From Archangiaceae bacterium (GTDB lineage: Bacteria; Myxococcota; Myxococcia; Myxococcales; Myxococcaceae), in the NCBI GenBank assembly GCA_023248915.1, contig JAHFDQ010000001.1:1-44769 (forward strand): DNA of 44,769 nucleotides. The letters run 5' to 3'. Both the position numbers and the translations under genes were made by a program. Shown one piece after another: positions 2,926 through 21,151 of this stretch. Under the pieces are notes generated by a model. It did not search any database, was not told where the DNA came from, and saw nothing but the letters and a program-made list of their open reading frames with translations. Each line of letters opens with the position of its first letter. The first letter of the stretch is position 1.

Positions 2926-4710
2926 CTACGGCTTCTTCTTCACCTCGCACCGGTCGAGCAGGTCTTCCGGCGCCACCTCGATGACGCCGTCGACGGGCGA
3001 CTTGATGCCGCCTATCGGGTAGCGCATTCCCTTGAAGCGGGCTCCGCGCACCAGCGTGCGCCCGGTGGGGTCGTCGGCGGGAATCATCGCCAGCGAGACG
3101 AAGAGATCATTGTACCCGGCGCCCCGCCCCGAGCCTCCGTCGCGGAAGTCGGGCAGCGTGGGCGCCAGCGCGATGTTGGCCACGCGGAAGCGGTAGCACT
3201 GCCGGCCTTGGGGGTCGACCGGCCCGTCGGCGTTGATCTGGTACCGGTAGCCGGTGGTGGTGAGCTTCGACCCGTCGGCCAGCAACGGGTCGGTGTGCCT
3301 CTGAATCTCCTGGTAGTTGTACATGCCGTCGCTGTCCGGGTCTTCGTCGCGGTCGTAGCTCGACGGCTGGGTGCGCATCTGCCACTCGATTGAATCGGGA
3401 ATGCCGTCCTGGTCGCTGTCCGAGCGCAGCCCGTTGGTGCCGATGATCTGCTCGTCGCAGTCGGTCAGCCCGTCGCAGTCCGAGTCGATGGCGCGCAGGG
3501 CGGGCGGGCAGCCCGGGTCGAGGCCGCCGCCGTCGGGCTGCGCGAGCTGGTTGGGCACGAACGAAGCTCCCAGCTTGGCGAAGTGCACCTCGACCCCGTC
3601 CGAGAAGCCGTCGCCGTCGGTGTCGGGGGCGAGCGGGTCGGTCCCGGCGGCGAGCTCTTCGGCGTCGGTCAACCCGTCGCCGTCGGAATCGGCCTCGGTG
3701 TCCGGTGAGTCGGCCGGCGCCGAGAAGTTGGTCACCAGGAATTCCTTCAGCGCATAGTCGCGGCGCACCTCGCCGAAGTCGAAGTTCAGGAAGTTGATGG
3801 GTTCGTTGTTGCGGAAGTCGCGGAAGGCGCCGCCGCCTATCTGGGCCATGCGGTCGAGCCGTTCGGCGTCTTGGTTGATCATCAGCATCGGGCAGGCCCC
3901 CGCGGGGACCACCGGAAACCGGCACGAGCTGCCCGTCGGCGGAGCCGTGTACCCGGTCAGGTCGCAGACCGCGGACAGCGGCTGGGTCGGGTTGAACACG
4001 TGCACCGTGTTGACCCGGACGTCGTCGGCCAGGTCCTTCAACTGGCGCACCCGAACCACCGCGTCGCCGCACAAGAGCTCGTCGTCCTGGTTGATGGTGG
4101 GGTGACCGTCGGACAGGAAGATGACCGAGTACCGGGCGACCGCTTCCGACTTGCTCAGCCGGGCGATGGCCAGGTCGCGGTTGATGAGCGCGTAGATTTC
4201 GGCCAGCGGCTTGATGAAGTCGGTGGCGTCGGCGTTCGCCCCGCCGTCGGGGTTCAACCCCGGGGTGGGCACGAAGTTGAGCAGCCGTTCCTTCAGCATC
4301 AGCCGGTCGTTGTCGGTGAAGGTGATGAGCTGCTCGAACTCGGGCAGGTTGCTGCGGGTCAGGAACGCGGGGGTCGAACCGGCGAACACCATCACCGAGA
4401 TGTAGATTTCCGGGTCGGTGGGCAGGGCTTCCATCAGGTCGATGATGGCCGTGGCGCGCGTGCCGTCGGGGTCGGTCACGTTCATCGACTGCGACGCGTC
4501 GAGCGCCATCATGATCTTGATGGGCCGGACCACCTCGTTGGTGCCCAGGGTGCACACCCGGCCCTCGACCGTCACCGTGCGGTCCACCGGCGCCGACGCG
4601 GTGTTGAGCGGATCGTAGACGTAGACGTCGGTGCACGACCAGGCGGCCACCGCCAGGGCCGCCGCGTGGCCAGCCCGCCACCCGGCCCCCTGCCGCCGCC
4701 GGACGGTCAC
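2926..4710 (-). CDS. Lipoprotein with a VWA domain (intact MIDAS), TSP3-type calcium-binding repeats and a family-specific C-terminal domain (paralog 1 of 3)
   Basis: 594 aa. The signal/lipobox is ...AALAVAAWSC-TD. The MIDAS motif DASQS lies in IKIMMALDASQSM. Asp-rich repeats include DSDGDGLTDAEE, DTDGDGFSDG, DSDCDGLTDCDE, DSDQDGIPDS and DPDSDGMYN. The C-terminal motif is GYRYQ...PQGRQCYRFRVANIAL. The GTG start overlaps the upstream stop (GTGA). Confidence 0.85.
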   Translation of the reverse strand: MTVRRRQGAGWRAGHAAALAVAAWSCTDVYVYDPLNTASAPVDRTVTVEGRVCTLGTNEVVRPIKIMMALDASQSMNVTDPDGTRATAIIDLMEALPTDPEIYISVMVFAGSTPAFLTRSNLPEFEQLITFTDNDRLMLKERLLNFVPTPGLNPDGGANADATDFIKPLAEIYALINRDLAIARLSKSEAVARYSVIFLSDGHPTINQDDELLCGDAVVRVRQLKDLADDVRVNTVHVFNPTQPLSAVCDLTGYTAPPTGSSCRFPVVPAGACPMLMINQDAERLDRMAQIGGGAFRDFRNNEPINFLNFDFGEVRRDYALKEFLVTNFSAPADSPDTEADSDGDGLTDAEELAAGTDPLAPDTDGDGFSDGVEVHFAKLGASFVPNQLAQPDGGGLDPGCPPALRAIDSDCDGLTDCDEQIIGTNGLRSDSDQDGIPDSIEWQMRTQPSSYDRDEDPDSDGMYNYQEIQRHTDPLLADGSKLTTTGYRYQINADGPVDPQGRQCYRFRVANIALAPTLPDFRDGGSGRGAGYNDLFVSLAMIPADDPTGRTLVRGARFKGMRYPIGGIKSPVDGVIEVAPEDLLDRCEVKKKP

Positions 4711-6656
4711 GGGGCGGTCCCCACGCAGCGGCTCTTGAAGGCCGCCGGGTCGCCGGTCATCTGCGACGGCGAGAGGAAGTTCGAGTTCAGCACCTCGACC
4801 TCGGGGCCAGTCGGCACCCGCACCGACGGCGGGTCGTACTGCGCCCAGACGCAGGCGGTGCGCCAGACGCCGTAGTCGGTGCCGACGCCGCTTTGCGGGG
4901 CCTCGCCGAACCAGACCTTGTACAGGTTGTAGCCTTGGCGAAGCCCGGCGCGGGACGGGGGCGTGACGAGCGTCAGGTTCGACACCGAGAAGTCGTAGCA
5001 GATGGTGCCGTCGGGCTGGGTCTGGGCCGAGGTGGCGTACTGGTAGCCAAACTCCTCGATGAAGTCGCGGTCACGCACGGTGGGGTCTGAGTCGAGGCTC
5101 AGCTCGTCCATGTCGGGAATGCCGTCACCGTCGGTGTCGAGCCCCACCGAGGCGGGCACGAGCGGGTCGAGGCCGTAGCGCACCTCGACCCCGTCCGGAA
5201 TGCCGTCGGCGTCGGAGTCGACGATGCCGGTTCGCGACTTCAGGAAGTCCTCCTCCGCGAACTGGGACAGGCCGTCGCCGTCGGTGTCGCGGCACGAGCA
5301 GCCGAGCGTCGCCGGGTCCGTCGGGTTGCACCCCCGGCCGTCCTTCTCGTTCGGCACGAAGCCGCGGTCCCCTCGCATCTGTTCGAAGCGGTCGTCGAAG
5401 CAGTCGCCGTCGGTGTCCGGGGCGAAGTTGCTCGTCTTCCAGGGCTTGTAGGGCTGGTCCAGCGTGTCGGCCAGTCCGTCGCCGTCGGAATCGACCAACC
5501 GCCCGGTGGGCCCCGGCACCGAGGTGACCGACTGCACCAAGAGCGTCTTCATCACGTTGGGCGCCGCCAAGGACGAGTAGTCGAGGGCGCCCAGGCCGAG
5601 GTTGGCGATTTCGCTGTTGTTGAATTCCTGGAAGACGCCGTTGCCGCGCTGGGCCATCTGCCGCAACAGCCACGAGGCGATGGCCTTGGTCGCCGCGGGG
5701 TAGTTGGCGGGGGTGGTGTTCGGGTAGGTGCCGTATAGGTCTTGGCAGATGGGGCCGCAGGCCTCGACCGCCGCCTGGTTGAACAGCAGCACGGTGTGGA
5801 AGCGCACGTCGCCGACGTTGAACTGGTCTCGGAGCTCGATCATCTGGTCGACGAACGAGAAGAGCTGGTAGTTCTGGTTGCGGTCGGTGCCCATCACGAA
5901 GCCGGTGATGGCGTCGGGGTCGGTCGGGTCGATGGTGTTGCAGTAGGTGCCCGACCCCGACGAGTCCGCGAACGTCAGGTCGGGGTTGTCCGAGTCGGCA
6001 TACTTTGTGAGGTTGTCGTTGGCCGAGCAGCGCGGAAACGGCGCTCCGTCGGTCAAGAACACCGTCACGTACCGGGTGCGCGGCAGTTGTTCGGGGCTGC
6101 TGTTCGACACGTCGGCGATGTCCGACGCGATGAGCGAGTAGGCGTAGGACATCGCCCCCTGGTAGTCGGTGCCCTTGCCGAGCTGGTTCTGCAGGCCGGT
6201 GATGTACGAGCCGAGCGAGCTGTCGGGCCTCGCGAAGCGCGACCCCGAGGTGGTCGGCGGCCAGACGTTCTTCACGTTGGTCTCGAACGGCACGATGGCG
6301 ATCTGCACGTTGGGCTGGTTCTGAAACTGCCCGATGAGCTGGTTCAACGCGCGCACCCGGGCCGGCTGGGTGACTCCGGGCGGCACGATGGCCACCACCG
6401 CGGCCTGCTCGCAGAAGCCCGACCCTTCCTGCGACCCGGGAGGGTCTGACACGCACATCGACCCAGACTCGTCCACGATGAAGACCACCTTGACCGGGAA
6501 GCCGGTGGGGTCGGGCGGGGCGGTGCAGACGCGCCCCTGGAGGGTGAGCTTGTTGTCGAGGTTGGTGGGTTCGGACGCTTTCGGCTCGATGAATGCGTCG
6601 GTGCACGCGAAGGTCGCCAACAGCGCCGTCACCGTCAGCCATTGCTTTGACGCCAT
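4707..6656 (-). CDS. Lipoprotein with a VWA domain (intact MIDAS), TSP3-type calcium-binding repeats and a family-specific C-terminal domain (paralog 2 of 3)
   Basis: 649 aa. The signal/lipobox is LTVTALLATFAC-TD. The MIDAS motif DESGS lies in VVFIVDESGSM. Repeats include DSDGDGLADT, DTDGDCFDD, DTDGDGLSQF, DSDADGIPDG and [12 protein letters not shown]. The C-terminal motif is GYQYA...PDGTICYDFSVSNLTL. A GGGAGG RBS precedes the ATG at 6656. Confidence 0.85.
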   Translation of the reverse strand: MASKQWLTVTALLATFACTDAFIEPKASEPTNLDNKLTLQGRVCTAPPDPTGFPVKVVFIVDESGSMCVSDPPGSQEGSGFCEQAAVVAIVPPGVTQPARVRALNQLIGQFQNQPNVQIAIVPFETNVKNVWPPTTSGSRFARPDSSLGSYITGLQNQLGKGTDYQGAMSYAYSLIASDIADVSNSSPEQLPRTRYVTVFLTDGAPFPRCSANDNLTKYADSDNPDLTFADSSGSGTYCNTIDPTDPDAITGFVMGTDRNQNYQLFSFVDQMIELRDQFNVGDVRFHTVLLFNQAAVEACGPICQDLYGTYPNTTPANYPAATKAIASWLLRQMAQRGNGVFQEFNNSEIANLGLGALDYSSLAAPNVMKTLLVQSVTSVPGPTGRLVDSDGDGLADTLDQPYKPWKTSNFAPDTDGDCFDDRFEQMRGDRGFVPNEKDGRGCNPTDPATLGCSCRDTDGDGLSQFAEEDFLKSRTGIVDSDADGIPDGVEVRYGLDPLVPASVGLDTDGDGIPDMDELSLDSDPTVRDRDFIEEFGYQYATSAQTQPDGTICYDFSVSNLTLVTPPSRAGLRQGYNLYKVWFGEAPQSGVGTDYGVWRTACVWAQYDPPSVRVPTGPEVEVLNSNFLSPSQMTGDPAAFKSRCVGTAP

Positions 6657-6763: not shown

Positions 6764-8080
<1,317 letters not shown>

Positions 8081-8262: not shown

Positions 8263-9858
8263 TCAAAAGCCTAGCACGAAGTCGTCGGGGGTCACCTTAA
8301 TGATGCCCTTCGGCTTCTTCTTATCGGGGGGAATGAAGCGCACCTGTTGGATGAAGAGCGACCCGATGCCGGTGCCGCGCGGGTCGGACTCGTGGCCGAC
8401 CTGCAGGTAGAAGTAGATGTCGTTGGTGCCCGCGGGAATCTTCAGGCTGGGGAAGTTCTCGTTGGGCCGTTCGATCGTGTACACCAGGCCGACGTTGGTC
8501 ACCTTGAAGTCGTAGCAGGCGCGGCCATCGGGGGTGGGGGTGCCGTCGGTGATGGCGTAACCGTAGCCGTGCTCGGCGCGGAAACCGATGTCGGCGGACA
8601 GCGCGTCGGTGTGTTGTTTCACTTCTCCGATGTTGGAGTACCCGTCGCGGTCTTGGTCGTTGAGGTCTTCCGGTATCAGCGGGTTGGTGTTGGCGAGCAA
8701 TTCGACCAGGTCGGGAATGCCGTCGCCGTCGGTGTCGGCCACGCACGGGTTGGTGCCGAGCACCCGTTCCTCGCAGTCGTTCAACCGGTCGAAGTCGGTG
8801 TCGAGGAAGGGGTTGCAGCCGTTGATGACGTCGACGTTGCCCGGCTGGGGCTTCAAGCCCATGTGCAGCTCGACGCCGTCCATCAGCCCGTCGCTGTCCG
8901 AGTCGGGGGCGATGGAGTCGGTGCCGGCGTCGGCCTCGTCGTCGTCAGGCATGCCGTCGCCGTCCGAATCGACCAGCACCTTGCCCGACCGGGCGACGGC
9001 GTTGCGGTTGAAGGCGAAGAACTGCTTCAGCACCAGCGCCCGCTGCAAGGAAGCGTAGTTGATGGCGTTCAGCGCCGCCTTCAGGTTTCCGGGGTCGGTC
9101 TCGATGAGCTGGGTGCCGCCCTGGCGGGCGATGGCGGCTCCCTGGGCGGACGCGGTGGGGTCGGCGGTGGTGCGCACGTAGATGGGCTGTATCGAGACCT
9201 CGCCGGCGCGGTACTGGTCTTCCAGCGACTTGAGCGCGCCGGTCACCGCCGACAGCTCGCAGGCCGAGCACTGCGCCGGGTCGGGCATGGCGCTGCACTT
9301 GCCTTCGATGCCGGCGTTGAAGGCCGGGTTGGCGCACGAGGTGTCGGCGTCGGAAAACACCAACACCACCAGGTAGCGGGTGCGACCGACGGTGCCCTTG
9401 CAACCGGTCTGCATGTCGCCCGACAAGAGGCTGCGGGCCAGCCTGAGCGGCGCGCGCAGCGAGATGGGGCCCGCTTCCTGGTAGCTCGAGTACTTCATGG
9501 TCGCGGTCTGAAGCTGCGCCGCGTCGACGTAGGACGCCTGAATGCCGGTGGCGACCGTGTGGTACGCCATCAGCTCGAACTTGATGTAGGGCTCGGAGAA
9601 GCGCGACCCCAGGTCCTGGAGCGCTGCGGTCACCTGCCCCACCACGGTGCGGTCGATGTTGTCGCCGCCTTCGACCGCGAACAGCACCCGCACCGGAAAG
9701 GCCTCGCCGGTCGCCAGCGGCACGCAGACGCTGCCTTCCAGGTCGACCCGGTCGGGGCCGGTGCCTGCCCCCTCGCCTATCTTGTAGAGGCCGACGTCGG
9801 TGCAACCCGAGAGCGCCCAGACGGCGGTCAGCATGAGAATCGGGCGCGAGCGGGACAT
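8263..9858 (-). CDS. Lipoprotein with a VWA-like domain (degenerate MIDAS), TSP3-type repeats and a family-specific C-terminal domain (paralog 3 of 3); first gene of the minus-strand array
   Basis: 531 aa with lipobox [10 protein letters not shown]. The position aligned to the MIDAS reads [14 protein letters not shown] instead of DxSxS. Repeats include [31 protein letters not shown] and DQDRDGYSN. The C-terminal motif is GYGYA...[16 protein letters not shown]. Confidence 0.8.
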
Positions 9859-9965
9859 GGCGCGCCGCGAAGCCTACTCCAGCGCGCCTCGTGGGGACAT
9901 CACGCAGGCGCTCGCCGCAGCGCCCGGGCGCGCGAACTATAGTGAAGGCGGTGTGCGTGTGCTCC

Positions 9966-9994: not shown

Positions 9995-10004
9995 TTGGGT
10001 CCTG

Positions 10005-10370: not shown

Positions 10371-10407
10371 TGCCCGAACTTCATCCGCAGTTCTCAAGGA
10401 GCTTTTT

Positions 10408-13240: not shown

Positions 13241-14859
13241 GCTCGAAGGCCTTCGTGAGAAACTCCCTCGTCTTGCTCTCCTGCGTGCTCGCCGCCGGCA
13301 CCGCTCGGGCCGGCAAGGGCACCGACCCGGTCACGGGAGAGGCACCTCCGGACGACCCGGTCGCCGATGAGGCGCCCGCTCCGCTGCCGCCCGCCAAGCC
13401 CGGGGCAGGCGCCGCTCCGCCTGCCGCCGCCACGAAGTCCGAGCCCGAGGCCGAGCCCGAAGGGGCCGCCGCCCCGCAGCAGCACCAGGTGGGGCCGAAG
13501 CTCTTCGACGAGGCGCTGCAGGACTACTTCCAGGGCCGCCCCAAGGAAGCCGCGCCCAAGCTGTTCGCCTTCACCGAGAGCGTCTCGCCCACCGACGAGA
13601 ACTACGCCTGGGCGCAGTTCTTCCTCGCGCGGTCGCTGGTCGACCTGGGGTTGCGCCACGCCGGAGCCGTCTACCTGGCCCGCATCGCGCGCGAACGGTC
13701 GAACCCCGCGGTGCTGCCGAAGGCGCTGGACGAATTGCGCGGACTGGCCGACCTGCCCCACGACGAAGAGATGATCGACAACCAGGTCTTCGGGTCGCTC
13801 GACCTGGGCTTCTTGCCCGAAGAGACCGCCGGCTTCGCCCACTACCAGCAGGGACTGGTCGACCTGAAGGTCGGCAACGAGCGCTGGGCCAACACCCACT
13901 TCGCCAAGCTTACGGAAGGGTCGGCCGAGGCGTCGCGGGCGCGCTTCGCCCTCTTGGTGACGCGCCTGAAGACGACCAAGCGCGACCTGCCGAAAGAGAT
14001 GATCGACGAGTTCCTCGAGCTGTCGAAGGACCCCAAGCTGACCCAGGACTCGCGCAACGAGTCGATGCTGGCGGTGGCCCGCCTGCGCTACGAGCAGAAG
14101 GACTTCAACGGCGCGCTCGAAGCCTACGCCTCGGTGAAGCTGCCGATGCTCGACCCCGGGCGGGCGGCGCTCTACCTCGAAGAGGCGTGGACGAGGTACC
14201 AGCTCGGCCAGATTCACGCGGCGATGGGCATTCTCACCACGCTCGACGCGCCGTCGTTCCGCGACGAGTTCCTCCCGGACAAGTACATCTTGCGCTCGTT
14301 CATCTACCGCGACCTGTGCCACTACCTGCCTGCGAAGCGGGCGGCGAAGGAATTGACCCGGCGCTTCGCCGAGTCGCTCGAGGCGATTCACGAGCGCGAA
14401 GACCTGGCCCAGGACGTGCGGCTGCGCCGCGCCGCCATCTCGCACGGGGCCACCAAGCGGGCCGAGAAGTTCCTCGAGTCGCTGGACCTGGAAGGCGAGC
14501 GGCTGGGGCGCTACGCCGGCAGCTTCGGCGACCGGCTGTTCGCCTACCTCACCAAGCTGTACGACCTGGCCCACGCCGAGTCGGCGCGCATCTTCCAGGT
14601 CCGGCTCCGCGAGTCGGTGCGGGTCGAAGCCGACAAGCTCTTGCGCGCCGCCGAGCAGGTGCGGCTGATGGAATACGAGGTCGGCCTGAAGCTGTACGAG
14701 CGGGTGAAGAAGGGCGCGAAGCTGGTCAGCGAGATCAAGGAAGACCAGCTCACGCCCACCCAGGTCCGGTACCACTTCGTGAACGAGTACTGGAACGACG
14801 AGCTGCGCAACTATCGCTTCTCGTTGAAGTCGCGCTGCATCGAGGAGACCGGCCGATGA
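13237..14859 (+). CDS. TPR-like helical-repeat lipoprotein (GltE/AglT/NfsE-like)
   Basis: 540 aa. The GTG start overlaps the upstream stop (GTGA). A signal peptide with a possible lipobox (LVLLSC) is followed by a Pro/Ala-rich linker and then an all-helical repeat body. The assignment rests on size, position next to the large TPR gene and helical architecture. The exact start is uncertain; an alternative GTG lies at 13255. Confidence 0.65.
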   Translation: MSSKAFVRNSLVLLSCVLAAGTARAGKGTDPVTGEAPPDDPVADEAPAPLPPAKPGAGAAPPAAATKSEPEAEPEGAAAPQQHQVGPKLFDEALQDYFQGRPKEAAPKLFAFTESVSPTDENYAWAQFFLARSLVDLGLRHAGAVYLARIARERSNPAVLPKALDELRGLADLPHDEEMIDNQVFGSLDLGFLPEETAGFAHYQQGLVDLKVGNERWANTHFAKLTEGSAEASRARFALLVTRLKTTKRDLPKEMIDEFLELSKDPKLTQDSRNESMLAVARLRYEQKDFNGALEAYASVKLPMLDPGRAALYLEEAWTRYQLGQIHAAMGILTTLDAPSFRDEFLPDKYILRSFIYRDLCHYLPAKRAAKELTRRFAESLEAIHEREDLAQDVRLRRAAISHGATKRAEKFLESLDLEGERLGRYAGSFGDRLFAYLTKLYDLAHAESARIFQVRLRESVRVEADKLLRAAEQVRLMEYEVGLKLYERVKKGAKLVSEIKEDQLTPTQVRYHFVNEYWNDELRNYRFSLKSRCIEETGR

Positions 14860-17800
14860 GCGCGGTCGTCCCGGTGGTGGCCGCGCTCTGGGTGCTGGCA
14901 CAGACTCCGTCGCAGGTCTTCTTGCAGAACAAGTACGAGAACCCCATCGTCTCGAAGCAGAAGGAAAAAGAAGAGCTCATCACCAAGCTGAAGCGCGACA
15001 TCTACAAGGTCGATCGGTCGATCGGCGAGACCGAGAAGCTGATTACGAAGAGCCGCAACGCCCCGTACCTGCCCGACCTGCAGTTCCGCCTGGCCGAGCT
15101 GTACGTCGAGAAGAGCCGCTACGTCTATTACCTGCAGGCCGAGACCCGGCCCGATGGCACCAAGGGCGCGGTGGTCTCGCCCGAGACCAAGCTGTTGAAG
15201 CAGAAGGCGGTGCAGATCTACTACCGCGTGCTGCACGAGTACCCCGAGTTTCACGACGGCGACAAGGTCACCTTCTACCTGGCGCACGAGCAGCGCGAGC
15301 TCGGTCAGTTCGACGACATGATGAAGACGTTGGGCGAGCTCATCAAGAAGTACCCCAACAGCCCGCTGCGCCTCGATTCCGAGCAGATTCTGGGCGACTA
15401 CTACTTCGACAAGACCGACCTGACCGAGGCCGAGAAGCACTTCAAGGCCATTCTCGACGCGCCCGCCTCGCCGGTGCACGACCTCGCCCGCTACAAGATG
15501 GGGTGGATTCGCATCAACCAGGCCAACCACGCCGAGGCGGTCACCTTCTTCGAGGCCGCGGCCGCCAGCGCTCCCATTCCCGGGGTCGACCAGGCCAAGG
15601 CGCTGAACGTCAAGCGCGAGGCGCTGCTCGACCTGGTCTACAGCTACACCGAGGCGCGCCCGGCCAAGGGGGCGCTCAACTACTTCGAGAAGCTGTCCGA
15701 GTCGCGCGCCACCTACGCGCTGGCGCTCGACAAGCTGGGCAACCGGTACTTCATCAAGCAGCAGTACGAGTTCGCCATTCCCGCGCTGCGGCGCCTGCTC
15801 GAAATCCAGCCCGACCCCGAGCTCGACCTGGAACGGGCCGAGAAGATCTACGACTCGATCAAGGCCTCGAAGGGCAAGGTGGTCGCGCGGCCAGCCGACA
15901 TCCGCTTCCTGGTGCGGGCCGCGGTGCAGACCAAGGTCGACCCGGCGAAGGACGAACCGACGCGGAAGAAGCAGTTGGCCGAGCTCGAAGAGATGGGGCG
16001 CGACCTGGCCACCCAGCTTCACGTCGCGGCGCAAAAGAAGGAAGACCACCCCCACTACATGGAAGCGGCCGCGGCCTACGAGGAATACCTGGCCCTGTTC
16101 CGCCCGCGGCAGCACGTCACCACCATCATGTCGAACCGCGCCGACGCGCTGTTCGCCGCCAAGGAATTCCCGTCGGCGGCGCGCCAGTTCGAAGAGCTGG
16201 CCACCTACCTGGAAGCCAAGGACGCCAAGGCGCACGAGGCTTCGCTCTACGGGGCGCTGTTGTCGCACTACTCGTCGCTGAAGCAGGGCGAGGTCGAACG
16301 GCTGAACGCCTTCGAGGTGGCCGACGCGCGGCAGGCGCTGAAGCTGTTGGGCGCCAACTTCGTGTCGCGCTACGCCCAGAGCGAGCACGTGCTCGAGGTG
16401 AAGTTCAACATCGCCCGCGCCTACTACGAAGACGGCGAGTTCCCGAAGGCGGCCGAGCTGTTCAAGGACTTCGCCCTGAAGCACTCCGAGCACAAAGACG
16501 CCGCCGCCGCCGGCAACCTGGCCCTCGACTCGCTGCGCCAGGTGAACGACTTCAAGGGGCTGGAAACGACCGGCAAGGCCTTCCTGGCCTCGAGGCTGCC
16601 GGCGGCCTTCCTTTCCGACGTGCAGAAGATTCTCACCGAGAGCAAGGGGGAAGAGCTGGGCGAGCTGGTGCTGAAGAGCTCGGAAGAGTCGGGCGACGTC
16701 GTCGAGGGGCTGCTCAAGGTCGCCGAAGAGAACAAGGGCAAGGACATCGGCGAGAAGGCGATGCACGGGGCCTTCCAGGCGGCGCGCGACAAGCGCGACC
16801 TGCGAAAGGAACGCGAGATTGGCGCCCGCTTCATCAACGAATACCCGAAGTCCGGCTTCCTCGCCGACGTGCTGTTGACCCTGGGCAGGGCCGCGGCCGA
16901 AGGGGCGCGCTTCACCGAGGCCGCTGCCTGGTACGACCAGGTGGGGCAACGCATGGGCGCCGACTCGACTGGGCTGGACGGCTTCCTCACCAGCGGCAAG
17001 CTGAAGCTGGCGATGGGCGACTACCCCGGCGCGGCCAAGGCCTTCGGCGCCGGGGCTGACATCGCCGGGCCGCGCAAGTCCGAGGTGCTGGCCCTGATGG
17101 CCGACGCCGAGCTGAAGCAGAAGGACCCGGCCCGGGCGCGCGCGTTGGCCGAGCAGGCCCTGAAGCTCGACAGACAGAACTCCGCCGCCGCCGCCGTCGT
17201 GGCCGAGGTGCAGGCCACCACCGCGCCGCACGAGAAGCCCGACGCGCTGGTGGCGATGCTGACCGCCATCTCGAACGGCCCCAACGGGCAGAGCGAAGAC
17301 ACGGCGAAGGGGCTCTGGTTTCTGGGCGACATCCTCTACCGGAACTACAAGGCGCTGCCGGCCGACAAGGTCGAAGAGAAGGTGGCGGCGCTGCAACAGC
17401 TCGAGGGCATCTTCGGCCAGGCGGCGCAGATGGGTTCGCCCGAGTGGGCGGTCGCGGCCCTGTGGAAGATTGGCCTGTCCTACGCCCACCTGGCCGACGT
17501 CGTCGAGGGCACGCCGATGCCCGCGGGGCTGAAGCCGGCCGAGGTCGAGCAGTTTCGCAACGCGGTGAAGGAACAGGTGAACCCGTTGCGCGAAAGGTCC
17601 GACGGCGCCTTCAAGGCCTGCCTGTCTCGCGCCGAACAGCTCGAGGTCTTCAGCGCGGCGCTGGTCGGCTGCCGCACCAAGAGCGAGACCGCCAAGTCGC
17701 CCATTCCGCTTCCGTCCGAAGGACGGCCGGTCAACGTCGACGAGCTGCAGCAGAAGGCCGAAACCACCATGAACCCGTCGGCCATCGAGGCCCTGGGCAT

Positions 17801-18119
17801 GGCCTACCTGGGGGCCGGGCAGTTGGCGCTGGCGCAGCTCACCTTCGCGCGGGCGCTCGAATTGGAAGACTCGCGGGCCTCGTCCCACTCGGCGATGGGC
17901 TACGCCATGCTGTTGCAGGGCGACTCGATGGGGGCCCGGGCCGAGTACGGCAAGGCGCTGGACGCCGACCCCACCTTCGAGAAGGCCCGGGCCAACCTGG
18001 CCGCGCTGCGCTGCCGGTTCCGCGACGCCGCGGGGGCCAAGCACGAGGTGGCGGTCATCAAGGACGCGGGGGCGCTGACCGGGCCCGACGTCGACCCCGA
18101 GTGGAAGGCGTGCCGATGA
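14856..18119 (+). CDS. Large periplasmic TPR protein (GltD/AgmU/NfsD-like)
   Basis: 1087 aa. The ATG overlaps the upstream stop (ATGA). The signal peptide is MSAVVPVVAALWVLAQT. Many TPR-like units are present (YLPDLQFRLAELYVEKSRY, GDYYFDKTDLTEAEKHFKAIL, LGMAYLGAGQLALAQLTFARALELE and others). Amino-acid composition is normal, unlike the Arg/Gly-rich antisense ORF. Confidence 0.75.
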   Translation: MSAVVPVVAALWVLAQTPSQVFLQNKYENPIVSKQKEKEELITKLKRDIYKVDRSIGETEKLITKSRNAPYLPDLQFRLAELYVEKSRYVYYLQAETRPDGTKGAVVSPETKLLKQKAVQIYYRVLHEYPEFHDGDKVTFYLAHEQRELGQFDDMMKTLGELIKKYPNSPLRLDSEQILGDYYFDKTDLTEAEKHFKAILDAPASPVHDLARYKMGWIRINQANHAEAVTFFEAAAASAPIPGVDQAKALNVKREALLDLVYSYTEARPAKGALNYFEKLSESRATYALALDKLGNRYFIKQQYEFAIPALRRLLEIQPDPELDLERAEKIYDSIKASKGKVVARPADIRFLVRAAVQTKVDPAKDEPTRKKQLAELEEMGRDLATQLHVAAQKKEDHPHYMEAAAAYEEYLALFRPRQHVTTIMSNRADALFAAKEFPSAARQFEELATYLEAKDAKAHEASLYGALLSHYSSLKQGEVERLNAFEVADARQALKLLGANFVSRYAQSEHVLEVKFNIARAYYEDGEFPKAAELFKDFALKHSEHKDAAAAGNLALDSLRQVNDFKGLETTGKAFLASRLPAAFLSDVQKILTESKGEELGELVLKSSEESGDVVEGLLKVAEENKGKDIGEKAMHGAFQAARDKRDLRKEREIGARFINEYPKSGFLADVLLTLGRAAAEGARFTEAAAWYDQVGQRMGADSTGLDGFLTSGKLKLAMGDYPGAAKAFGAGADIAGPRKSEVLALMADAELKQKDPARARALAEQALKLDRQNSAAAAVVAEVQATTAPHEKPDALVAMLTAISNGPNGQSEDTAKGLWFLGDILYRNYKALPADKVEEKVAALQQLEGIFGQAAQMGSPEWAVAALWKIGLSYAHLADVVEGTPMPAGLKPAEVEQFRNAVKEQVNPLRERSDGAFKACLSRAEQLEVFSAALVGCRTKSETAKSPIPLPSEGRPVNVDELQQKAETTMNPSAIEALGMAYLGAGQLALAQLTFARALELEDSRASSHSAMGYAMLLQGDSMGARAEYGKALDADPTFEKARANLAALRCRFRDAAGAKHEVAVIKDAGALTGPDVDPEWKACR

Positions 18120-18616
18120 GCCCTTCGGCGCTCGCCTGGCTCGCCACCGTTCCGCTGGCCGCGGCCGCCTGCGGCCCGGTGCAGCCGGGGCCGCCCAAGC
18201 CGGCCCACGCCCTCGAGGGCAGCCTGTCGGTGCTGGTGGACCTGGGCTTCGACGTCGCGCACGTGGACGTCAGCGACAACGACTTGGCGGTGCGCTACGG
18301 CCGGAAGCAGGGCGACGGCGAGGACACCGTCTTCAAGGCGACCGCCATCATCTCGGACCTGGTGCTGGTGCAAAACGGCAGCATCGACCTGGCCGAGGTT
18401 CTGCCGTCGGGCGTGCAGCGGGGCCTGATGTCGCGGGACGTGCTGAATGACCCACGGCGCGCGTTTCCAAAGCTGCAGCGGGGCCGCGTCATCCTCGACC
18501 GGGTGCCGGTGTCGGGCGAGAACGTCAACGTCGACCTGGCGGTCACCTTCGAGGCGGGCATCGACTTCGCTTCGGGGCGGACGGTGTTCGGAAAGTTCGA
18601 GGCGAACGTCCTATGA
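18116..18616 (+). CDS. Hypothetical lipoprotein, translationally coupled to the GltD-like gene
   Basis: 166 aa with an ATGA overlap. The lipobox is MSPSALAWLATVPLAAAAC-G. I recognise no family; any GltK/CglC-type relationship is only a guess. Confidence 0.65.
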   Translation: MSPSALAWLATVPLAAAACGPVQPGPPKPAHALEGSLSVLVDLGFDVAHVDVSDNDLAVRYGRKQGDGEDTVFKATAIISDLVLVQNGSIDLAEVLPSGVQRGLMSRDVLNDPRRAFPKLQRGRVILDRVPVSGENVNVDLAVTFEAGIDFASGRTVFGKFEANVL

Positions 18617-19242
18617 AGCGCGCGCGAATCGCGGCGGCGGCCGGCTTGCTCGTCCTCGCCGCGGGGTGCACCAAGCGGGTGCCCGCCGACCTCATCAACA
18701 AGCTGCCCTACGACTACCGCATCGAATTGCTCGAGGCCGAGAACGACTTCGCGCTGGCCATCGACCGGCTCGACGAGGCCCAGGCGGAAATCCTCCACAC
18801 CCGCGACACGCTGCGCAGGGCCAAGGAGAGGCTGTCGGCCGCCGAGAGCGAGACCGGCCGCGCCGAGACCAAGGCCTCGCAGGAAGTCGCCACCCTGGCG
18901 GTAGACGAAGCCGACGCCCGGGTGGCCTTCCTGAGGGCAAGGCAGGCGGTCAACGTCAAGACCGAGGGCGTGCAGAAGAAGAGCCTGCGCTGCGCCGAGG
19001 CCCGGTTCGAGCAGGCGCGGATGGTGGTGGCGCGCAAGGCCAAGGTCGAGGGTTCCGAGTCGCTGCGCCCCGAAGAGTTCGACGCGCAGGTGAAGGAGTG
19101 CGATGCCGACGTGGCCGAGCTGAAAGCGGAAATGAAGGAACAGAACGACGACGCCGCGGCCGCCAAGGACGCCTGGGAAAAGCACAAGACCGCCCTGGCC
19201 CGGAAGACTTTCGACGCGAGAGCGAGCCCGTATGTCGAGTAG
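18613..19242 (+). CDS. Hypothetical coiled-coil lipoprotein
   Basis: 209 aa with an ATGA overlap and lipobox LLVLAAGC-T. The remainder is strongly helical with a heptad-like pattern (LEAENDFALAIDRLDEAQAEILHTRDTLRRAKERLSAAESE...). Confidence 0.65.
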   Translation: MKRARIAAAAGLLVLAAGCTKRVPADLINKLPYDYRIELLEAENDFALAIDRLDEAQAEILHTRDTLRRAKERLSAAESETGRAETKASQEVATLAVDEADARVAFLRARQAVNVKTEGVQKKSLRCAEARFEQARMVVARKAKVEGSESLRPEEFDAQVKECDADVAELKAEMKEQNDDAAAAKDAWEKHKTALARKTFDARASPYVE

Positions 19243-21151
19243 CCGGAAGGCCGTCGTGACGAATCTCTTGTTCATCGCGCTGCCCGCCCTGGCGGCGGCC
19301 CCCGCGGAAGAGTCCGCCGCGCTGAAGCGCACCGTCGACGTCGAGTCGGCCAACGTCCAGGCCGCTCCGGACGACACCGACGCGCTGTACCGGCTGGGGC
19401 TGGCGTACCTCGCGCTCGGCGACGCCAAGCGCGCGGTGGTTCCGCTGACCGACCTGGTGAAGAAAGACGCGGAAGCGGTCGACGCCAAGGTGCTGCTGGC
19501 GCGAGCCTTGCGGCTGTCGTCGGAAGGCGAGAAGGCGCGGGCGTTGCTGGACGCGGCGATTCTGTCCCTGCCCGACGACGCTTCGCTGCGCGCCGAGCGG
19601 GGCCTGCTCGCCCGCAGTATGAACGAGACCGACGTCGCCATCGACCAGTACGGCAAGGCGGTGCAGTTGTCGCCCCAGGACGCCGACCTGCGCTTCAACT
19701 ACGGCGAGGCGCTGCACAAGCGCGGCAAGACGGACGAGGCCATCGCCGCCTACCGCCAGGCGCTGCAGCTCAACGCCGGGCTGACCTCGGCCAAGGTGAA
19801 CCTGGGCAAGGCGCTGGCCGAGAAGGGGCTGTACGGCGAGGCCAAGGAAATTCTCACCCAGGCGTCGAAGGAAGACTTGAAGGACGCCGAGTCGCACTAC
19901 AACCTGGGCGTACTCTTGATGCGCGAGAGCAACGTCGGCGGCGCCATCGCCGAGTACCAGCGGGCGCTGGCGGTCGACCCCAAGCACGCGCTGGCCCACA
20001 ACAACCTGGGCGTGGCCTTCGACGCGAAGACGGACCACAAGGCGGCGGCCGAGGAGTTCAAGAAGGCCATCGCCACCGACTCGGGCTACGCCGAGGCGCA
20101 CTTCAACCTGGGGCTGTCGTACTTCGGCATGGGGAAGAATCTGCAAGCCACCCACGAGTTCGAGACCGCGCTGAAGCTCGAACCGCGCGCCTCGGGGCCC
20201 TACACCCAGCTCGGCACGCTGTACCTGCAGCAGGGCAAGAAGGACCGGGCGCTGGAAGCCTTCAAGAAGGCGGTGGCCGCGGTCGGCGACGACCGCATCA
20301 AGAACACCGACGCCTACCGCGGGCTGGCGCTGTCCTACCTGGCGCTGGGCCGGCCGAACGAAGCGGTCGAGACCTTGAAGACCGCGGTGAAGGCGCTGCC
20401 CGACGACGCGTCGTCGCACGCGGCGCTGGCGCAGGCCTACCTGGCGCTGGGCGACATGGACGCGGCGGTGGAAGAGCTGAAGCGCCGGCTGACGCTCGAA
20501 CCCGGCCCCGAGGCCAAGCTCGACCTGGCCAGGGCCTGGGCGAAAAAACGCGTCTCGAAGGAAGCGCTGCCCCTGTACTTGGAGCTGTTGAAGGACGACC
20601 CGAAGAGCCTTGCCGCGCGCAACGGCCTGGTCGACCTGTACATCGCGATGAGCCAGTGGCCGTCGGCCGAGCAGGTGCTGACCGACTGGTTGAAAGAAGA
20701 CCCCAACGACACCAACGCCAGCGCGAGGCTGGGCATCATCCACGCCCGAAAGGGGCGGCCCGACCTCGCCCTGCCGGCCTTAGAGGCGGTGGCGGAGAAG
20801 GACCCGACTCAGCTCGAGGCCCGGGCCGAGCTGGGCTTCCTCTACCTGCGCGGCGGCGACACCGACAAGGCGATGCGGGTGATTGGCGACGTGCTGGCCA
20901 CCGAGCCGCGGAACCCGCTGGCGCTGCACTACCTGGGCGTGGCGCTGTACCGGAAGGGCCAGGCGGCGAAGGCCGAGGAGTCGTTCAAGGCGGCGGCCCA
21001 GCTCGACCCGAAGTTCTCGGCGCCGCACTTCTCGCTGGGCGAGCTGTACGAGGCGCAGCAGAAGCTCGACGACGCGCGGCGCGAGTACGACGCGGCCGCG
21101 AAGCTCGGCCACCCCGAGGCGGCCGACGCGCTGAAGAAGCTCACCAAGTAG
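19232..21151 (+). CDS. Secreted multi-TPR protein (GltC/NfsC-like)
   Basis: 639 aa with an 11-nt overlap onto the upstream gene. The signal peptide is VVTNLLFIALPALAAAPA. At least 12 canonical TPR units follow (ALYRLGLAYLALGDAKRAV, AHNNLGVAFDAKTDHKAAAEEFKKAI, AHFNLGLSYFGMGKNLQATHEFETALKL and others). Confidence 0.75.
   Translation: MSSSRKAVVTNLLFIALPALAAAPAEESAALKRTVDVESANVQAAPDDTDALYRLGLAYLALGDAKRAVVPLTDLVKKDAEAVDAKVLLARALRLSSEGEKARALLDAAILSLPDDASLRAERGLLARSMNETDVAIDQYGKAVQLSPQDADLRFNYGEALHKRGKTDEAIAAYRQALQLNAGLTSAKVNLGKALAEKGLYGEAKEILTQASKEDLKDAESHYNLGVLLMRESNVGGAIAEYQRALAVDPKHALAHNNLGVAFDAKTDHKAAAEEFKKAIATDSGYAEAHFNLGLSYFGMGKNLQATHEFETALKLEPRASGPYTQLGTLYLQQGKKDRALEAFKKAVAAVGDDRIKNTDAYRGLALSYLALGRPNEAVETLKTAVKALPDDASSHAALAQAYLALGDMDAAVEELKRRLTLEPGPEAKLDLARAWAKKRVSKEALPLYLELLKDDPKSLAARNGLVDLYIAMSQWPSAEQVLTDWLKEDPNDTNASARLGIIHARKGRPDLALPALEAVAEKDPTQLEARAELGFLYLRGGDTDKAMRVIGDVLATEPRNPLALHYLGVALYRKGQAAKAEESFKAAAQLDPKFSAPHFSLGELYEAQQKLDDARREYDAAAKLGHPEAADALKKLTK

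What the first reader, a model, noticed from the sequence alone, without database searches (positions are those of the whole stretch)
2926..21151. Divergent ~18 kb locus pairing a VWA/TSP3 surface-protein array with a Glt/Nfs-type trans-envelope operon: candidate undescribed calcium-dependent adhesion/motility-like system
**Layout.** Two gene sets diverge from one 146-nt intergenic region (9859-10004).
- **Leftward:** four secreted or lipidated proteins built from VWA domains and thrombospondin type-3 calcium-binding repeats.
- **Rightward:** nine mostly overlapping genes. They encode an FHA/TonB-C-like inner-membrane transducer, an OM beta-barrel, three TPR scaffold proteins and two lipoproteins.

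**Known parallel.** The rightward set resembles the core of the Myxococcus xanthus Agl-Glt gliding machinery and its Nfs spore-coat paralog. In M. xanthus the surface adhesins that the Glt machinery engages (CglB, and CglD as I recall it) are VWA-containing lipoproteins encoded elsewhere in the genome.

**Why it matters.** Here VWA/TSP3 lipoproteins sit physically next to a Glt-like core in a different gene order. That suggests a self-contained adhesin-plus-transducer module. The functional link is inference only.
Basis: partly seen in the sequence, partly recalled or inferred. Interest (0 to 1): 0.8.

Follow-up and report, generated by a model that had tools for sequence, protein, structure and literature searches.

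The report
Known mts adhesin operon beside Glt-paralog G5
This locus matches a gene neighbourhood already named in the model bacteria Myxococcus xanthus and M. fulvus, where a cell-cell cohesion adhesin operon (mts) sits head-to-head with a gliding-machinery paralog of unknown function (G5). Their strongly conserved pairing gives a testable idea of what G5 does.

Summary
**Observation.** It is real.

**Identity.** The locus is not undescribed.
- The leftward genes are orthologs of mtsB, mtsC, mtsD and mtsE, part of the Myxococcus "cell-cell cohesion" locus (Zhang 2007). MtsD and MtsC pass NCBIfam equivalog cut-offs.
- The rightward genes are orthologs of M. xanthus MXAN_1331-1324. These include the "G5" Glt/Nfs paralog cluster of Luciano 2011. 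Its function is unknown, and a polar insertion in MXAN_1327 left gliding and twitching normal.
- The same head-to-head layout occurs in M. xanthus and M. fulvus HW-1.

**Linkage.**
- Of 57 Myxococcaceae loci, 55 have mtsA or mtsB upstream of G5. The opposite flank is conserved in only 10 of 31.
- Stigmatella and one MAG carry both sets unlinked.

**Peculiarity of the window.** It lacks mtsA and mtsF, which close relatives keep.

**Mechanism.**
- MtsD and MtsE have intact metal-binding (MIDAS) sites.
- The four Mts proteins carry 22 calcium-binding motifs.
- The MtsD model resembles the VWA modules of pilus-tip adhesins.
- A functional G5-Mts link is plausible (about 0.45) but untested.

**Verdict.** New member of a known kind.

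The parts
2926..4710 (-). m1 = MtsE ortholog (594 aa). Lipoprotein-like N-terminus (…AAWSC|TDV), VWA-like domain with intact MIDAS (D71-A-S-Q-S, T, D) and 5 strict TSP3 calcium motifs.
   Evidence: Pfam TSP3_bac 2e-21. 59% identical to M. xanthus MXAN_1336. The HW-1 ortholog is named MtsE, A7X9B0. Paralogous to m2 over residues 9-525. MIDAS and motif counts.
4707..6656 (-). m2 = MtsD ortholog (649 aa). Lipoprotein, VWA with intact MIDAS (D62xS64xS66, T163, D203), 3 strict TSP3 motifs and a C-terminal beta domain.
   Evidence: NCBIfam MtsD equivalog 1071 bits against a cut-off of 800. Pfam VWA_2. 62% identity over 99% of the query to UniProt A7X9A9, MtsD of M. fulvus HW-1. AF2 model pLDDT 79. 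Foldseek top hits are adhesin VWA modules.
6764..8080 (-). m3 = MtsC ortholog (438 aa). Signal peptide, 10 strict TSP type-3 calcium motifs (108-nt tandem repeat at 7259-7720) and a MYXO-CTERM sorting tail.
   Evidence: NCBIfam MtsC equivalog 610 bits against a cut-off of 350. Pfam TSP_3 7.9e-48 with 6 stretches. C-terminal hydrophobic segment followed by RRRR. Tandem repeat. MtsC = MXAN_1334.
8263..9858 (-). m4 = MtsB ortholog (531 aa). Canonical lipobox LSGC, VWA-like domain with degenerate MIDAS and 4 TSP3 motifs. First gene of the leftward operon in this window.
   Evidence: Pfam TSP3_bac 6.8e-13. 56% identical to M. xanthus MXAN_1333. Lipobox. MIDAS alignment.
9859..10004 (.). 146-nt divergent intergenic region. 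It holds a sigma-70-like element, TTGACG (9966-9971), 17 nt, TTTAGT (9989-9994), 10 nt before the p1 ATG.
   Evidence: Sequence read. The same TTGACG-N17/18-TTT[CA][AG]T element lies 10-14 nt before the p1 start in 33 of 76 related loci. The stricter scanning tool found none.
10005..10370 (+). p1 = GltF/CglF-like small secreted protein (121 aa). Ortholog of MXAN_1331.
   Evidence: NCBIfam CglF 35.8 bits, E 6e-9, below the cut-off of 90. 71% identical to the M. xanthus ortholog. Luciano's supplementary table maps MXAN_1331 to gltF.
10408..12594 (+). p2 = GltG-like bitopic inner-membrane transducer (728 aa). Layout: cytoplasmic FHA 1-97, Pro/Ala linker, conserved domain 285-415, TM 418-441, Lys/Glu/Pro-rich stretch, Gly-rich stretch, TonB-C-like domain 633-724. 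Ortholog of MXAN_1330.
   Evidence: Pfam FHA 5.8e-12. NCBIfam AgmX/PglI C-terminal domain 108.8 bits against a cut-off of 40; GltG 206 bits against a cut-off of 650. Topology. Homologs. AAGGAG Shine-Dalgarno before the TTG start.
12626..13240 (+). p3 = GltB-like outer-membrane beta-barrel (204 aa). Ortholog of MXAN_1329.
   Evidence: TIGR04565 OMP_myx_plus 91.1 bits against a cut-off of 60. Luciano's table maps MXAN_1329 to gltB.
13237..14859 (+). p4 = GltC-like periplasmic/OM-associated protein (540 aa). Ortholog of MXAN_1328.
   Evidence: NCBIfam GltC 74.6 bits, E 7e-21, below the cut-off of 450. Weak TPR_19. 73% identical to the M. xanthus ortholog. Mapping.
14856..18119 (+). p5 = GltD-like large periplasmic TPR scaffold (1087 aa). 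Ortholog of MXAN_1327.
   Evidence: TPR_2 1.9e-19 and other TPR families. 69% identical to the 1089-aa M. xanthus protein. MXAN_1327 is called the gltD homolog of G5.
18116..18616 (+). p6 = conserved 166-aa lipoprotein (AAAC|G) of unknown family, all-beta. Ortholog of MXAN_1326.
   Evidence: No Pfam or NCBIfam hit. Present in every long G5 locus. AF2 pLDDT 70, all beta strands, no PDB fold match.
18613..19242 (+). p7 = conserved 209-aa lipoprotein (LAAGC|T), probably coiled-coil. Ortholog of MXAN_1325.
   Evidence: Lipobox. Only weak SMC-type coiled-coil hits. Conserved at 52-63% identity in related loci.
19232..21151 (+). p8 = secreted TPR protein (639 aa). Ortholog of MXAN_1324. The GltE-like match is not specific.
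   Evidence: Many TPR families. GltE 128 bits against a cut-off of 225, but generic TPR models score higher. MXAN_1324 is listed as a known developmental gene.
1888..2911 (.). Two small genes that travel with the mts operon in other genomes: an MXAN_1339-like gene (minus strand, about 1888-2320) and an Ig-like MXAN_1338-like gene (plus strand, about 2480-2911). mtsF would normally lie between them and mtsE, and it is missing here.
   Evidence: tblastn 49-61% identity and 45% identity. Pfam HYDIN/ASH/Cep192_D4 Ig-like hits. The same pair follows mtsF in L083-L086.

Best explanation
**Identity (near certain).** This is the ortholog, in an uncultured Myxococcaceae lineage, of M. xanthus MXAN_1324-1336. 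It comprises two gene sets.
- The mtsB-C-D-E part of the mts 'cell-cell cohesion' locus.
- Head-to-head with it, the eight-gene operon that contains the 'G5' paralog of the Glt/Nfs trans-envelope complex.

**The Mts half.**
- MtsB, MtsD and MtsE are outer-membrane lipoproteins with VWA(-like) and thrombospondin type-3 modules.
- MtsC is a TSP3-repeat protein anchored through a MYXO-CTERM tail.
- Loaded with Ca2+ (22 DxDxDGxxDxxD/E motifs) and carrying MIDAS sites in MtsD and MtsE, they act as surface adhesins that hold cells together.

**The G5 half.**
- p2 is a TonB/GltG-like protein with a cytoplasmic FHA domain, one transmembrane helix and a TonB-C-like end. It would take proton-motive energy from a TolQR/AglRQS-type motor encoded elsewhere.
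- It would transmit that energy through periplasmic scaffolds (GltD-, GltC- and TPR-like p5, p4 and p8, plus GltF-like p1).
- The output would reach an outer-membrane module: the GltB-like barrel p3 and lipoproteins p6 and p7.

**The link (inferred, about 0.45).** By analogy with Glt holding and unmasking the VWA adhesin CglB and working with the VWA/TSP3 adhesin CglD, G5 would be the envelope platform that retains, exposes or moves the Mts adhesins. Cohesion would then be regulated and energy-dependent.

**What is shown and what is not.**
- Shown: orthology, domain content and conserved linkage.
- Inferred: calcium dependence, the motor partner, and any G5-Mts contact.
For: **Orthology.**
- MtsD and MtsC equivalog models pass their cut-offs.
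- m2 is 62% identical to HW-1 MtsD, A7X9A9.
- HW-1 proteins are named MtsA, MtsD, MtsE and MtsF.
- The M. xanthus locus L001 has the same order and sizes.
- Luciano 2011 maps MXAN_1327-1331 to gltD, gltC, gltB, gltG and gltF.

**Adhesin character.**
- MIDAS is intact in m2 and m1, and there are 22 strict TSP3 motifs.
- The m2 model's best PDB matches are adhesin VWA modules: Mfa5 at 1.4e-8, the S. sanguinis PilB pilin, LapA, RrgA, GBS104 and integrin beta3.
- m1, m2 and m4 have sub-threshold CglD matches.
- CglD is a Ca-binding VWA/TSP3 lipoprotein that works with Glt.

**Transducer character.** AgmX/PglI C-terminal domain, FHA and a single transmembrane helix in p2; beta-barrel p3.

**Linkage.**
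- 55 of 57 loci with at least 4.5 kb upstream carry mtsA or mtsB divergently next to G5, and 47 of 57 carry mtsB.
- On the opposite flank the M. xanthus neighbour is kept in only 10 of 31 loci, and the window's neighbour in 0 of 31.
- Both sets persist in genomes where they are unlinked.

**Expression and genetics.**
- In M. xanthus development RNA-seq, expression levels are similar and mean r between G5 and mts genes is 0.71, against 0.33 and 0.31 for G5 and mts genes with seven control genes.
- MXAN_1324 is listed as a developmental gene.
Against: **Genetics.**
- A polar insertion in MXAN_1327 (the p5 ortholog) gave wild-type gliding and twitching colony edges.
- The mts paper's title ties the locus to social motility and development.

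**Linkage is not universal.**
- The sets are unlinked in Stigmatella aurantiaca and in MAG GCA_016191815.1.
- Unrelated genes are inserted between mtsA and mtsB in 15 of 49 loci, and a further insert of about 10.8 kb occurs in Myxococcus sp. RHSTA-1-4.
- The tightest partner of G5 is MtsA, which this window lacks.

**Weak or missing support.**
- The RNA-seq correlation is weak evidence. One unrelated control gene correlates equally well, and the authors flagged most of these profiles as unreliable.
- MtsC surface display is expected to use the type II secretion/myxosortase route, not G5.
- No motor gene is in the window.
- No experiment on G5-Mts contact was found.
Confidence: 0.45

Rival explanations
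1. **Independent neighbours.** The mts adhesin operon works on its own, exported by Lol, the type II system and myxosortase. G5 serves an unrelated cargo or process. The head-to-head arrangement is inherited gene order, perhaps kept by shared promoter-region regulation, with no physical or mechanistic coupling.
For: - Unlinked but both retained in Stigmatella and in one MAG.
- Recurrent insertions between mtsA and mtsB.
- The polar MXAN_1327 mutant has normal motility.
- The mtsB-F unit keeps its own downstream partners (the Ig-like gene and the MXAN_1339-like gene) wherever it goes.
- The mts locus as named does not include the G5 genes.
Against: - The G5-mts flank is far better conserved than the other flank: 55 of 57 against 10 of 31.
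- The neighbours belong to the rare protein class (VWA/TSP3 lipoproteins) that the paralogous Glt machine is known to use. That would be an unlikely coincidence (inference).
Confidence: 0.35
2. **Same pathway, no direct adhesin handling.** Like Agl-Nfs with spore-coat polysaccharide, G5 would move or organise a surface polymer or matrix component. The Mts proteins would bind that polymer through their VWA and Ca2+ sites, so cohesion needs both without a G5-Mts complex.
For: - Nfs, the closest characterised paralog, transports a polysaccharide rather than an adhesin.
- Conserved linkage and co-occurrence.
- VWA/MIDAS modules typically bind ligands.
Against: - No polysaccharide synthesis or export genes lie in or beside the locus in the window or in M. 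xanthus.
- No data on any G5 cargo were found.
Confidence: 0.15
3. **The reader's strong version.** This is a previously undescribed, self-contained gliding-like motility system with its own adhesins.
For: - Glt-type components next to VWA/TSP3 proteins.
- Different gene order from glt and nfs.
Against: - Both halves are already described and named.
- No motor genes are present.
- None of the plus-strand proteins scored as GltA, GltH, GltI or GltK, and the only GltJ match lies in p2's shared C-terminal domain.
- All Glt equivalog scores are far below their cut-offs.
- The MXAN_1327 insertion mutant glides normally, and G5 cannot compensate for glt or agl defects.
Confidence: 0.03

Closest known systems
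mts locus (mtsA-F) of Myxococcus fulvus HW-1 and M. xanthus MXAN_1332-1337 (Zhang et al. 2007, J Bacteriol 189:7937)
   Same: - m4, m3, m2 and m1 are orthologs of MtsB, MtsC, MtsD and MtsE, in the same order and on the same strand.
- Domain content matches.
- MtsC and MtsD pass the NCBIfam equivalog cut-offs.
   Different: - mtsA (about 770-820 aa) and mtsF (about 780-800 aa) are absent from the window.
- Relatives at 70-74% identity keep both.
- As a result, mtsB directly faces the G5 operon here.
G5 cluster of M. xanthus (MXAN_1327-1331; Luciano et al. 2011, PLoS Genet 7:e1002268)
   Same: - p5, p4, p3, p2 and p1 are orthologs of the gltD, gltC, gltB, gltG and gltF homologs of G5, in the same order.
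- The three further downstream genes (MXAN_1326-1324) are also conserved.
   Different: Nothing structural. The function is unknown in M. xanthus too. The window's organism is a distant relative, with p2 about 53% identical to Myxococcus.
Agl-Glt gliding machinery with the adhesins CglB and CglD
   Same: - Homologous GltG-, GltD-, GltC-, GltB- and GltF-type parts.
- Neighbouring VWA and VWA/TSP3 lipoproteins of the CglB/CglD structural class.
   Different: - All Glt equivalog scores are far below their cut-offs.
- No plus-strand protein scored as GltA, GltH, GltI or GltK, and the only GltJ match lies in p2's shared C-terminal domain. No motor is present.
- Gene order differs.
- The G5 mutant glides normally.
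- Here the adhesin genes are adjacent, whereas cglB and cglD are unlinked to glt.
Agl-Nfs spore-coat assembly machinery (nfsA-H)
   Same: A Glt paralog encoded as a single operon, presumably driven through a GltG-type transducer.
   Different: - Nfs keeps the glt gene order A-H, and its known cargo is polysaccharide.
- G5 has the order F-G-B-C-D plus three other genes, and no known cargo.
TonB-ExbBD and TolA-TolQR energy transducers
   Same: p2 has a single transmembrane helix, a Pro/Lys/Glu-rich periplasmic spacer and a TonB-C-like end.
   Different: - p2 has an N-terminal cytoplasmic FHA domain and a large conserved cytoplasmic region.
- The TIGR01352 TonB C-terminal model scores below its cut-off (18.5 against 27.1).
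- No ExbBD/TolQR genes are nearby.

Membership tests
mts cell-cell cohesion locus | MtsD equivalog (NF047639) at or above the curated cut-off | tested here: met
   m2 scores 1071 bits against a cut-off of 800, matching the full length. It is 62% identical to HW-1 MtsD, A7X9A9.
mts cell-cell cohesion locus | MtsC equivalog (NF047638) with a MYXO-CTERM tail | tested here: met
   m3 scores 609.9 bits against a cut-off of 350. The C-terminal Cys, hydrophobic segment and RRRR are visible.
mts cell-cell cohesion locus | Gene order mtsB-C-D-E on one strand | tested here: met
   The order and sizes match M. xanthus, HW-1, Stigmatella and the MAGs.
mts cell-cell cohesion locus | Complete six-gene set including mtsA and mtsF | tested here: not met
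   tblastn against the window finds no MXAN_1332/MtsA homolog at E<1e-3 and no MtsF homolog at E<1e-2. There is no space left at either junction.
mts cell-cell cohesion locus | Required for cell-cell cohesion, social motility and development | not testable with these tools
   This rests on Zhang et al. 2007 (title only), on the NCBIfam product names and on my own recollection of the abstract.
G5 Glt/Nfs paralog cluster | GltG-type transducer: FHA, single transmembrane helix and AgmX/PglI (TonB-like) C-terminal domain | tested here: met
   FHA at 5.8e-12. NF033768 at 108.8 bits against a cut-off of 40. Transmembrane helix at 418-441.
G5 Glt/Nfs paralog cluster | Orthologs of MXAN_1327-1331 (gltD, gltC, gltB, gltG and gltF homologs) in the order F-G-B-C-D | tested here: met
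   Collinear tblastn matches at 55-73% identity to L001. The mapping to glt genes is in Luciano's supplement.
G5 Glt/Nfs paralog cluster | GltE homolog | tested here: inconclusive
   p8 hits GltE at 128 bits against a cut-off of 225, but generic TPR models score higher. Luciano did not list MXAN_1324 as part of G5.
Agl-Glt gliding machinery proper | Glt equivalog models at or above their cut-offs | tested here: not met
   Scores against cut-offs are GltG 206 vs 650, GltC 74.6 vs 450, CglF 35.8 vs 90 and GltE 128 vs 225.
Agl-Glt gliding machinery proper | GltA, GltH, GltI, GltJ and GltK components and an AglRQS motor | tested here: not met
   No such hits appear among the locus proteins. The only GltJ match lies in p2's shared C-terminal domain. 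No MotA/TolQ/ExbB or ExbD/TolR family is present anywhere in the window. The rest of the genome is not available.
Agl-Glt gliding machinery proper | Needed for gliding motility | not testable with these tools
   Published data argue against it. The insertion mutant of MXAN_1327 glides normally.
CglD-type integrin-like adhesins | Lipoprotein with a VWA domain plus COMP-like DxDxDG calcium repeats | tested here: met
   m1 and m2 have a lipoprotein N-terminus, a MIDAS-bearing VWA domain and TSP3 motifs. This holds at the level of architecture only.
CglD-type integrin-like adhesins | CglD equivalog (NF033765) at or above the cut-off | tested here: not met
   Scores of 44.2, 26.6 and 38.7 bits against a cut-off of 400, confined to the TSP3 region.

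The most novel reading that the evidence does not exclude
G5 is the dedicated envelope-spanning, proton-motive-force-driven machine that retains, exposes or moves the Mts VWA/TSP3 adhesins. Regulated, calcium-dependent cell-cell cohesion would then be a third functional specialisation of the Agl/Glt family, after gliging and spore-coat assembly. In that picture MtsA would be the usual bridge between the two sets, and this window would show a minimal version lacking MtsA and MtsF.
Probability: 0.3. Interest if true: 0.7.

Novelty: new member of a known kind. Interest (0 to 1): 0.38.

Why it matters
**An open question.** The function of the G5 (and G4) Glt paralogs has been open since they were named in 2011. 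The mts cohesion locus has had little follow-up since 2007; a 2025 review of M. xanthus milestones does not mention it.

**What this analysis adds.** G5 and mts are kept head-to-head across Myxococcaceae far more faithfully than the opposite flank. The Mts proteins belong to the same adhesin class that Glt uses (CglB and CglD). Together these points turn a function-unknown cluster into a concrete hypothesis that can be tested in the genetically tractable M. xanthus.

**If true.** It would show that Glt-type machines are general platforms for energised surface-adhesin control, relevant to how multicellular behaviour evolved in myxobacteria.

**If false.** The locus is simply an ordinary ortholog of two known neighbouring gene sets.

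Tried and rejected
**Dead ends.**
- Zhang et al. 2007 could not be read by PMC id, DOI or PubMed id. The mts phenotypes therefore rest on the title, product names and memory.
- The 2026 barcoded-transposon preprint holds no supplement and no mention of MXAN_1324-1337.
- Sequence searches of the PDB with m1, m2, p3, p6 and p7 gave nothing useful. p2 matched only FHA domains.
- The p6 AF2 model (pLDDT 70, only 7 sequences) had no PDB fold match.
- The promoter/terminator scanner found no sigma-70 site in the spacer, and only weak terminator-like hits after p8.
- Rfam and tRNA scans of the window were empty.

**Weak evidence.** The G5-mts RNA-seq correlation (mean r 0.71) looked supportive. It is weak because one unrelated control gene (MXAN_1362) correlates equally well, and the authors flagged most of these profiles as failing replicate correlation.

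**Readings rejected.**
- That the window is M. xanthus itself: p2 is only about 53% identical to Myxococcus, and the best hit (74%) is a Myxococcaceae MAG.
- That the G5 genes are part of the named mts locus: their HW-1 orthologs carry no Mts names.
- That a MtsA homolog lies elsewhere in the window: there is no tblastn hit.

Full report
**1. Gene models**

The window is about 68-70% G+C, so raw ORF lists are unreliable. Third-position GC profiles and start-codon inspection give the following.

| Gene | Coordinates | Strand | Length (aa) |
|---|---|---|---|
| m1 | 2926-4710 | - | 594 |
| m2 | 4707-6656 | - | 649 |
| m3 | 6764-8080 | - | 438 |
| m4 | 8263-9858 | - | 531 |
| p1 | 10005-10370 | + | 121 |
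| p2 | 10408-12594 | + | 728 |
| p3 | 12626-13240 | + | 204 |
| p4 | 13237-14859 | + | 540 |
| p5 | 14856-18119 | + | 1087 |
| p6 | 18116-18616 | + | 166 |
| p7 | 18613-19242 | + | 209 |
| p8 | 19232-21151 | + | 639 |

- Five of the seven plus-strand junctions overlap by 4-11 nt.

**2. Domain content**

Leftward genes:
- Pfam finds TSP3_bac in m1 and m4, VWA_2 plus TSP3_bac in m2, and six TSP_3 repeats in m3.
- m1, m2 and m4 are paralogs over nearly their whole length. All three start their mature form with a Cys-Thr-Asp lipoprotein-type N-terminus.
- The metal-binding MIDAS motif is intact in m2 (D62xS64xS66, T163, D203) and in m1. It is degenerate in m4.
- Strict DxDxDGxxDxxD/E calcium motifs number 5 in m1, 3 in m2, 10 in m3 and 4 in m4.
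- m3 ends in a MYXO-CTERM-type tail.
- An AlphaFold model of m2 (pLDDT 79, pTM 0.78) best matches adhesin VWA modules: the type V pilus tip protein Mfa5, the S. sanguinis PilB pilin, LapA, RrgA, GBS104 and integrin beta3.

Rightward genes:
- p2 has an FHA domain, one transmembrane helix (418-441), Lys/Glu/Pro-rich and Gly-rich spacers, and an AgmX/PglI C-terminal domain above its cut-off.
- p3 is a myxobacterial outer-membrane beta-barrel domain protein, above its cut-off.
- p4 is GltC-like.
- p5 and p8 are TPR proteins.
- p1 is CglF/GltF-like.
- p6 and p7 are lipoproteins with no family assignment.

**3. Identity**

- NCBIfam equivalog models name m2 'cell-cell cohesion protein MtsD' (1071 bits against 800) and m3 'cell-cell cohesion MYXO-CTERM protein MtsC' (610 bits against 350).
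- m2 is 62% identical over 99% of its length to UniProt A7X9A9, the original MtsD of M. fulvus HW-1.
- MtsC is MXAN_1334. The source paper is Zhang et al. [quoted passage not shown] I could not read it.
- Exact look-ups of the HW-1 proteins return the deposited names MtsA (765-820 aa), MtsE (582 aa) and MtsF (798 aa), plus the NCBI product name MtsC (442 aa). The 529-aa protein between MtsA and MtsC carries no name and is taken as MtsB from its position. The two adjacent G5 genes carry no Mts name.
- Luciano et al. 2011 defined the M. xanthus clusters G3 (nfs), G4 and G5 as Glt paralogs. G5 is MXAN_1327 (gltD homolog), 1328 (gltC), 1329 (gltB), 1330 (gltG) and 1331 (gltF).
- The M. xanthus locus fetched through the p2 ortholog (L001) shows the same eight plus-strand genes with near-identical sizes. 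It also shows the leftward MtsB-E genes, collinear at 39-73% identity.
- The window therefore carries the ortholog of MXAN_1324-1336. The organism is not a named species: the best p2 hit is 74% (a Myxococcaceae MAG), and Myxococcus is about 53%.

**4. Is the pairing conserved?**

A genome-collection scan with an alignment of p2 orthologs returned 80 loci, all Myxococcaceae or Archangiaceae. Results from tblastn of the window proteins against them:

| Set of loci | Result |
|---|---|
| All long loci | Keep p1-p8 in order |
| 57 loci with at least 4.5 kb upstream of p1 | 55 carry an MtsA or MtsB homolog divergently upstream; 47 carry MtsB |
| 27 loci with at least 9 kb upstream | 26 have MtsA, 20 have MtsB, 18 have MtsC and MtsD |
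| Control, opposite flank | M. xanthus downstream neighbour (an EamA permease) kept in 10 of 31; the window's neighbour in 0 of 31 |

- The linkage is therefore much stronger than local background synteny.
- It is not absolute. In Stigmatella aurantiaca the mtsB-F operon has no G5 within 10 kb, while a G5-type cluster exists elsewhere as STAU_1954-1958.
- In MAG GCA_016191815.1 the two sets sit on different contigs.
- In Myxococcus sp. RHSTA-1-4 about 10.8 kb of unrelated genes (an ECF sigma factor, CHAT-domain proteins and others) separates mtsA from mtsB.
- Among 49 loci showing both mtsA and mtsB, 34 are contiguous and 15 have inserts of 0.5-6.6 kb. The MtsA-p1 spacer is tight, with a median of about 110 nt in 66 loci. 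MtsA is thus the tightest partner of G5.

**5. What is particular to this window**

- It lacks MtsA and MtsF.
- It keeps the two small genes that normally follow mtsF: an Ig-like MXAN_1338-type gene and an MXAN_1339-type gene.
- Relatives at 70-74% identity keep MtsA-like and MtsF genes. The loss is therefore recent and lineage-specific.
- L074 and L079 also lack MtsA but keep MtsF.

**6. Function**

*Published genetics.*
- A polar insertion in MXAN_1327 did not affect gliding or twitching 'at any appreciable level'. G5 cannot compensate for glt or agl defects, and its function is stated to be unknown.
- MXAN_1324 is listed among genes involved in development, citing Srinivasan 2005.

*Expression.* In the M. 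xanthus developmental RNA-seq, all genes of both sets run at about 25-90 RPKM.

| Gene pairs compared | Mean r |
|---|---|
| G5 with mts | 0.71 |
| G5 with seven control genes from the same table | 0.33 |
| mts with the same controls | 0.31 |

One unrelated control gene correlates as well, and most of these profiles were flagged as unreliable. I count this as weak support.

*The parallel with Glt.* Glt uses the VWA lipoprotein CglB and the VWA/TSP3, Ca2+-binding lipoprotein CglD as adhesins. m1, m2 and m4 give sub-threshold CglD matches. A Glt paralog beside proteins of this rare class, kept so across a family, argues for a functional relation. This step is inference.

*Working model.*
- The Mts proteins are calcium-loaded surface adhesins for cell-cell cohesion.
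- G5 is a TonB/GltG-type transducer plus periplasmic scaffold plus outer-membrane module. A motor encoded elsewhere drives it, and it holds, exposes or moves the adhesins.
- I put the link at about 0.45, independent neighbours at about 0.35, and a shared pathway without contact at about 0.15.

**7. Comparison and verdict**

- The locus belongs to the mts family for MtsB-E, though the six-gene set is incomplete.
- It belongs to the G5 cluster.
- It is not the Glt machinery proper. All equivalog scores are far below their cut-offs, and no plus-strand protein scored as GltA, GltH, GltI or GltK. The only GltJ match lies in p2's shared C-terminal domain. No motor genes are present.
The Glt-like and adhesin readings and the idea of a linked module stand as a hypothesis. 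'Undescribed' and 'motility-like' do not.
- Novelty: a new member of a known kind, with a reduced mts set.
- The useful product is a testable hypothesis for the function of G5, best pursued in M. xanthus.

Noticed in passing
window 2911-2926 and 9859-10004 (compare L001, L083-L089): The window lacks both mtsA (normally between mtsB and the G5 operon) and mtsF (normally after mtsE). The junctions are clean, with only 14 nt left between the mtsE stop and the Ig-like gene. Relatives at 70-74% identity keep both genes.
   Followed up: yes
window 9966-9994; L003, L074, L079 and 30 other loci: A conserved promoter-like element, CCTTGACG-N17/18-TTT[CA][AG]T, ends 10-14 nt before the p1 ATG, which implies a very short leader. 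In many Archangium-like loci the spacer reads TGGCAC-N5-TTCGC, one mismatch from the sigma-54 -24/-12 consensus. The window is degenerate at that position.
   Followed up: partly
window 21171-22208 (+): A 345-aa ORF starts 20 nt after p8 and ends in a MYXO-CTERM-like tail (CGCSQAGSG…LFRLRRRR). It has lower GC3 (0.78) and a 15-nt x 4.5 tandem repeat at 22034-22101. None of the 80 related loci has a homolog, so it is a lineage-specific surface protein appended to the operon.
   Followed up: partly
window 1888-2911: An Ig-like (HYDIN/ASH/Cep192_D4) small gene on the plus strand and an MXAN_1339-like gene on the minus strand accompany the mtsB-F unit in every genome inspected, including those where G5 is unlinked. 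The raw ORFs 1888-2625 (-) and 2255-2911 (+) overlap, so their true starts are probably internal.
   Followed up: partly
L006, L011, L017, L036, L037, L040, L048, L050, L058, L063, L065, L067, L073; L052/L083: The mtsA|mtsB junction is a recurrent insertion site: 15 of 49 loci have inserts of 0.5-6.6 kb. A further insert of about 10.8 kb carries an ECF sigma factor and CHAT/STAND genes in Myxococcus sp. RHSTA-1-4. After such insertions mtsA stays with G5, not with mtsB-F.
   Followed up: partly
L001 6998-9331 (MXAN_1332 / MtsA; not in the window): MtsA has no Pfam domain. It gives only faint hits to beta-propeller YVTN repeats (residues 473-506) and to MauG/SoxA-type cytochrome c regions (residues 651-677). 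UniProt labels one version 'Cytochrome c domain-containing protein'. Its role beside G5 is unexplained.
   Followed up: no
window 225-1505 (-): A HipA-type toxin kinase gene (HipA_C 9e-46 and Couple_hipA). A short ORF upstream at 1502-1819 could be its antitoxin.
   Followed up: no
window 6764-8080 (m3, residues about 45-58): The MtsC ortholog has a Cys/Gly run ([11 protein letters not shown]) just after its signal peptide, and 21 cysteines in all. The run's conservation and role were not examined.
   Followed up: no
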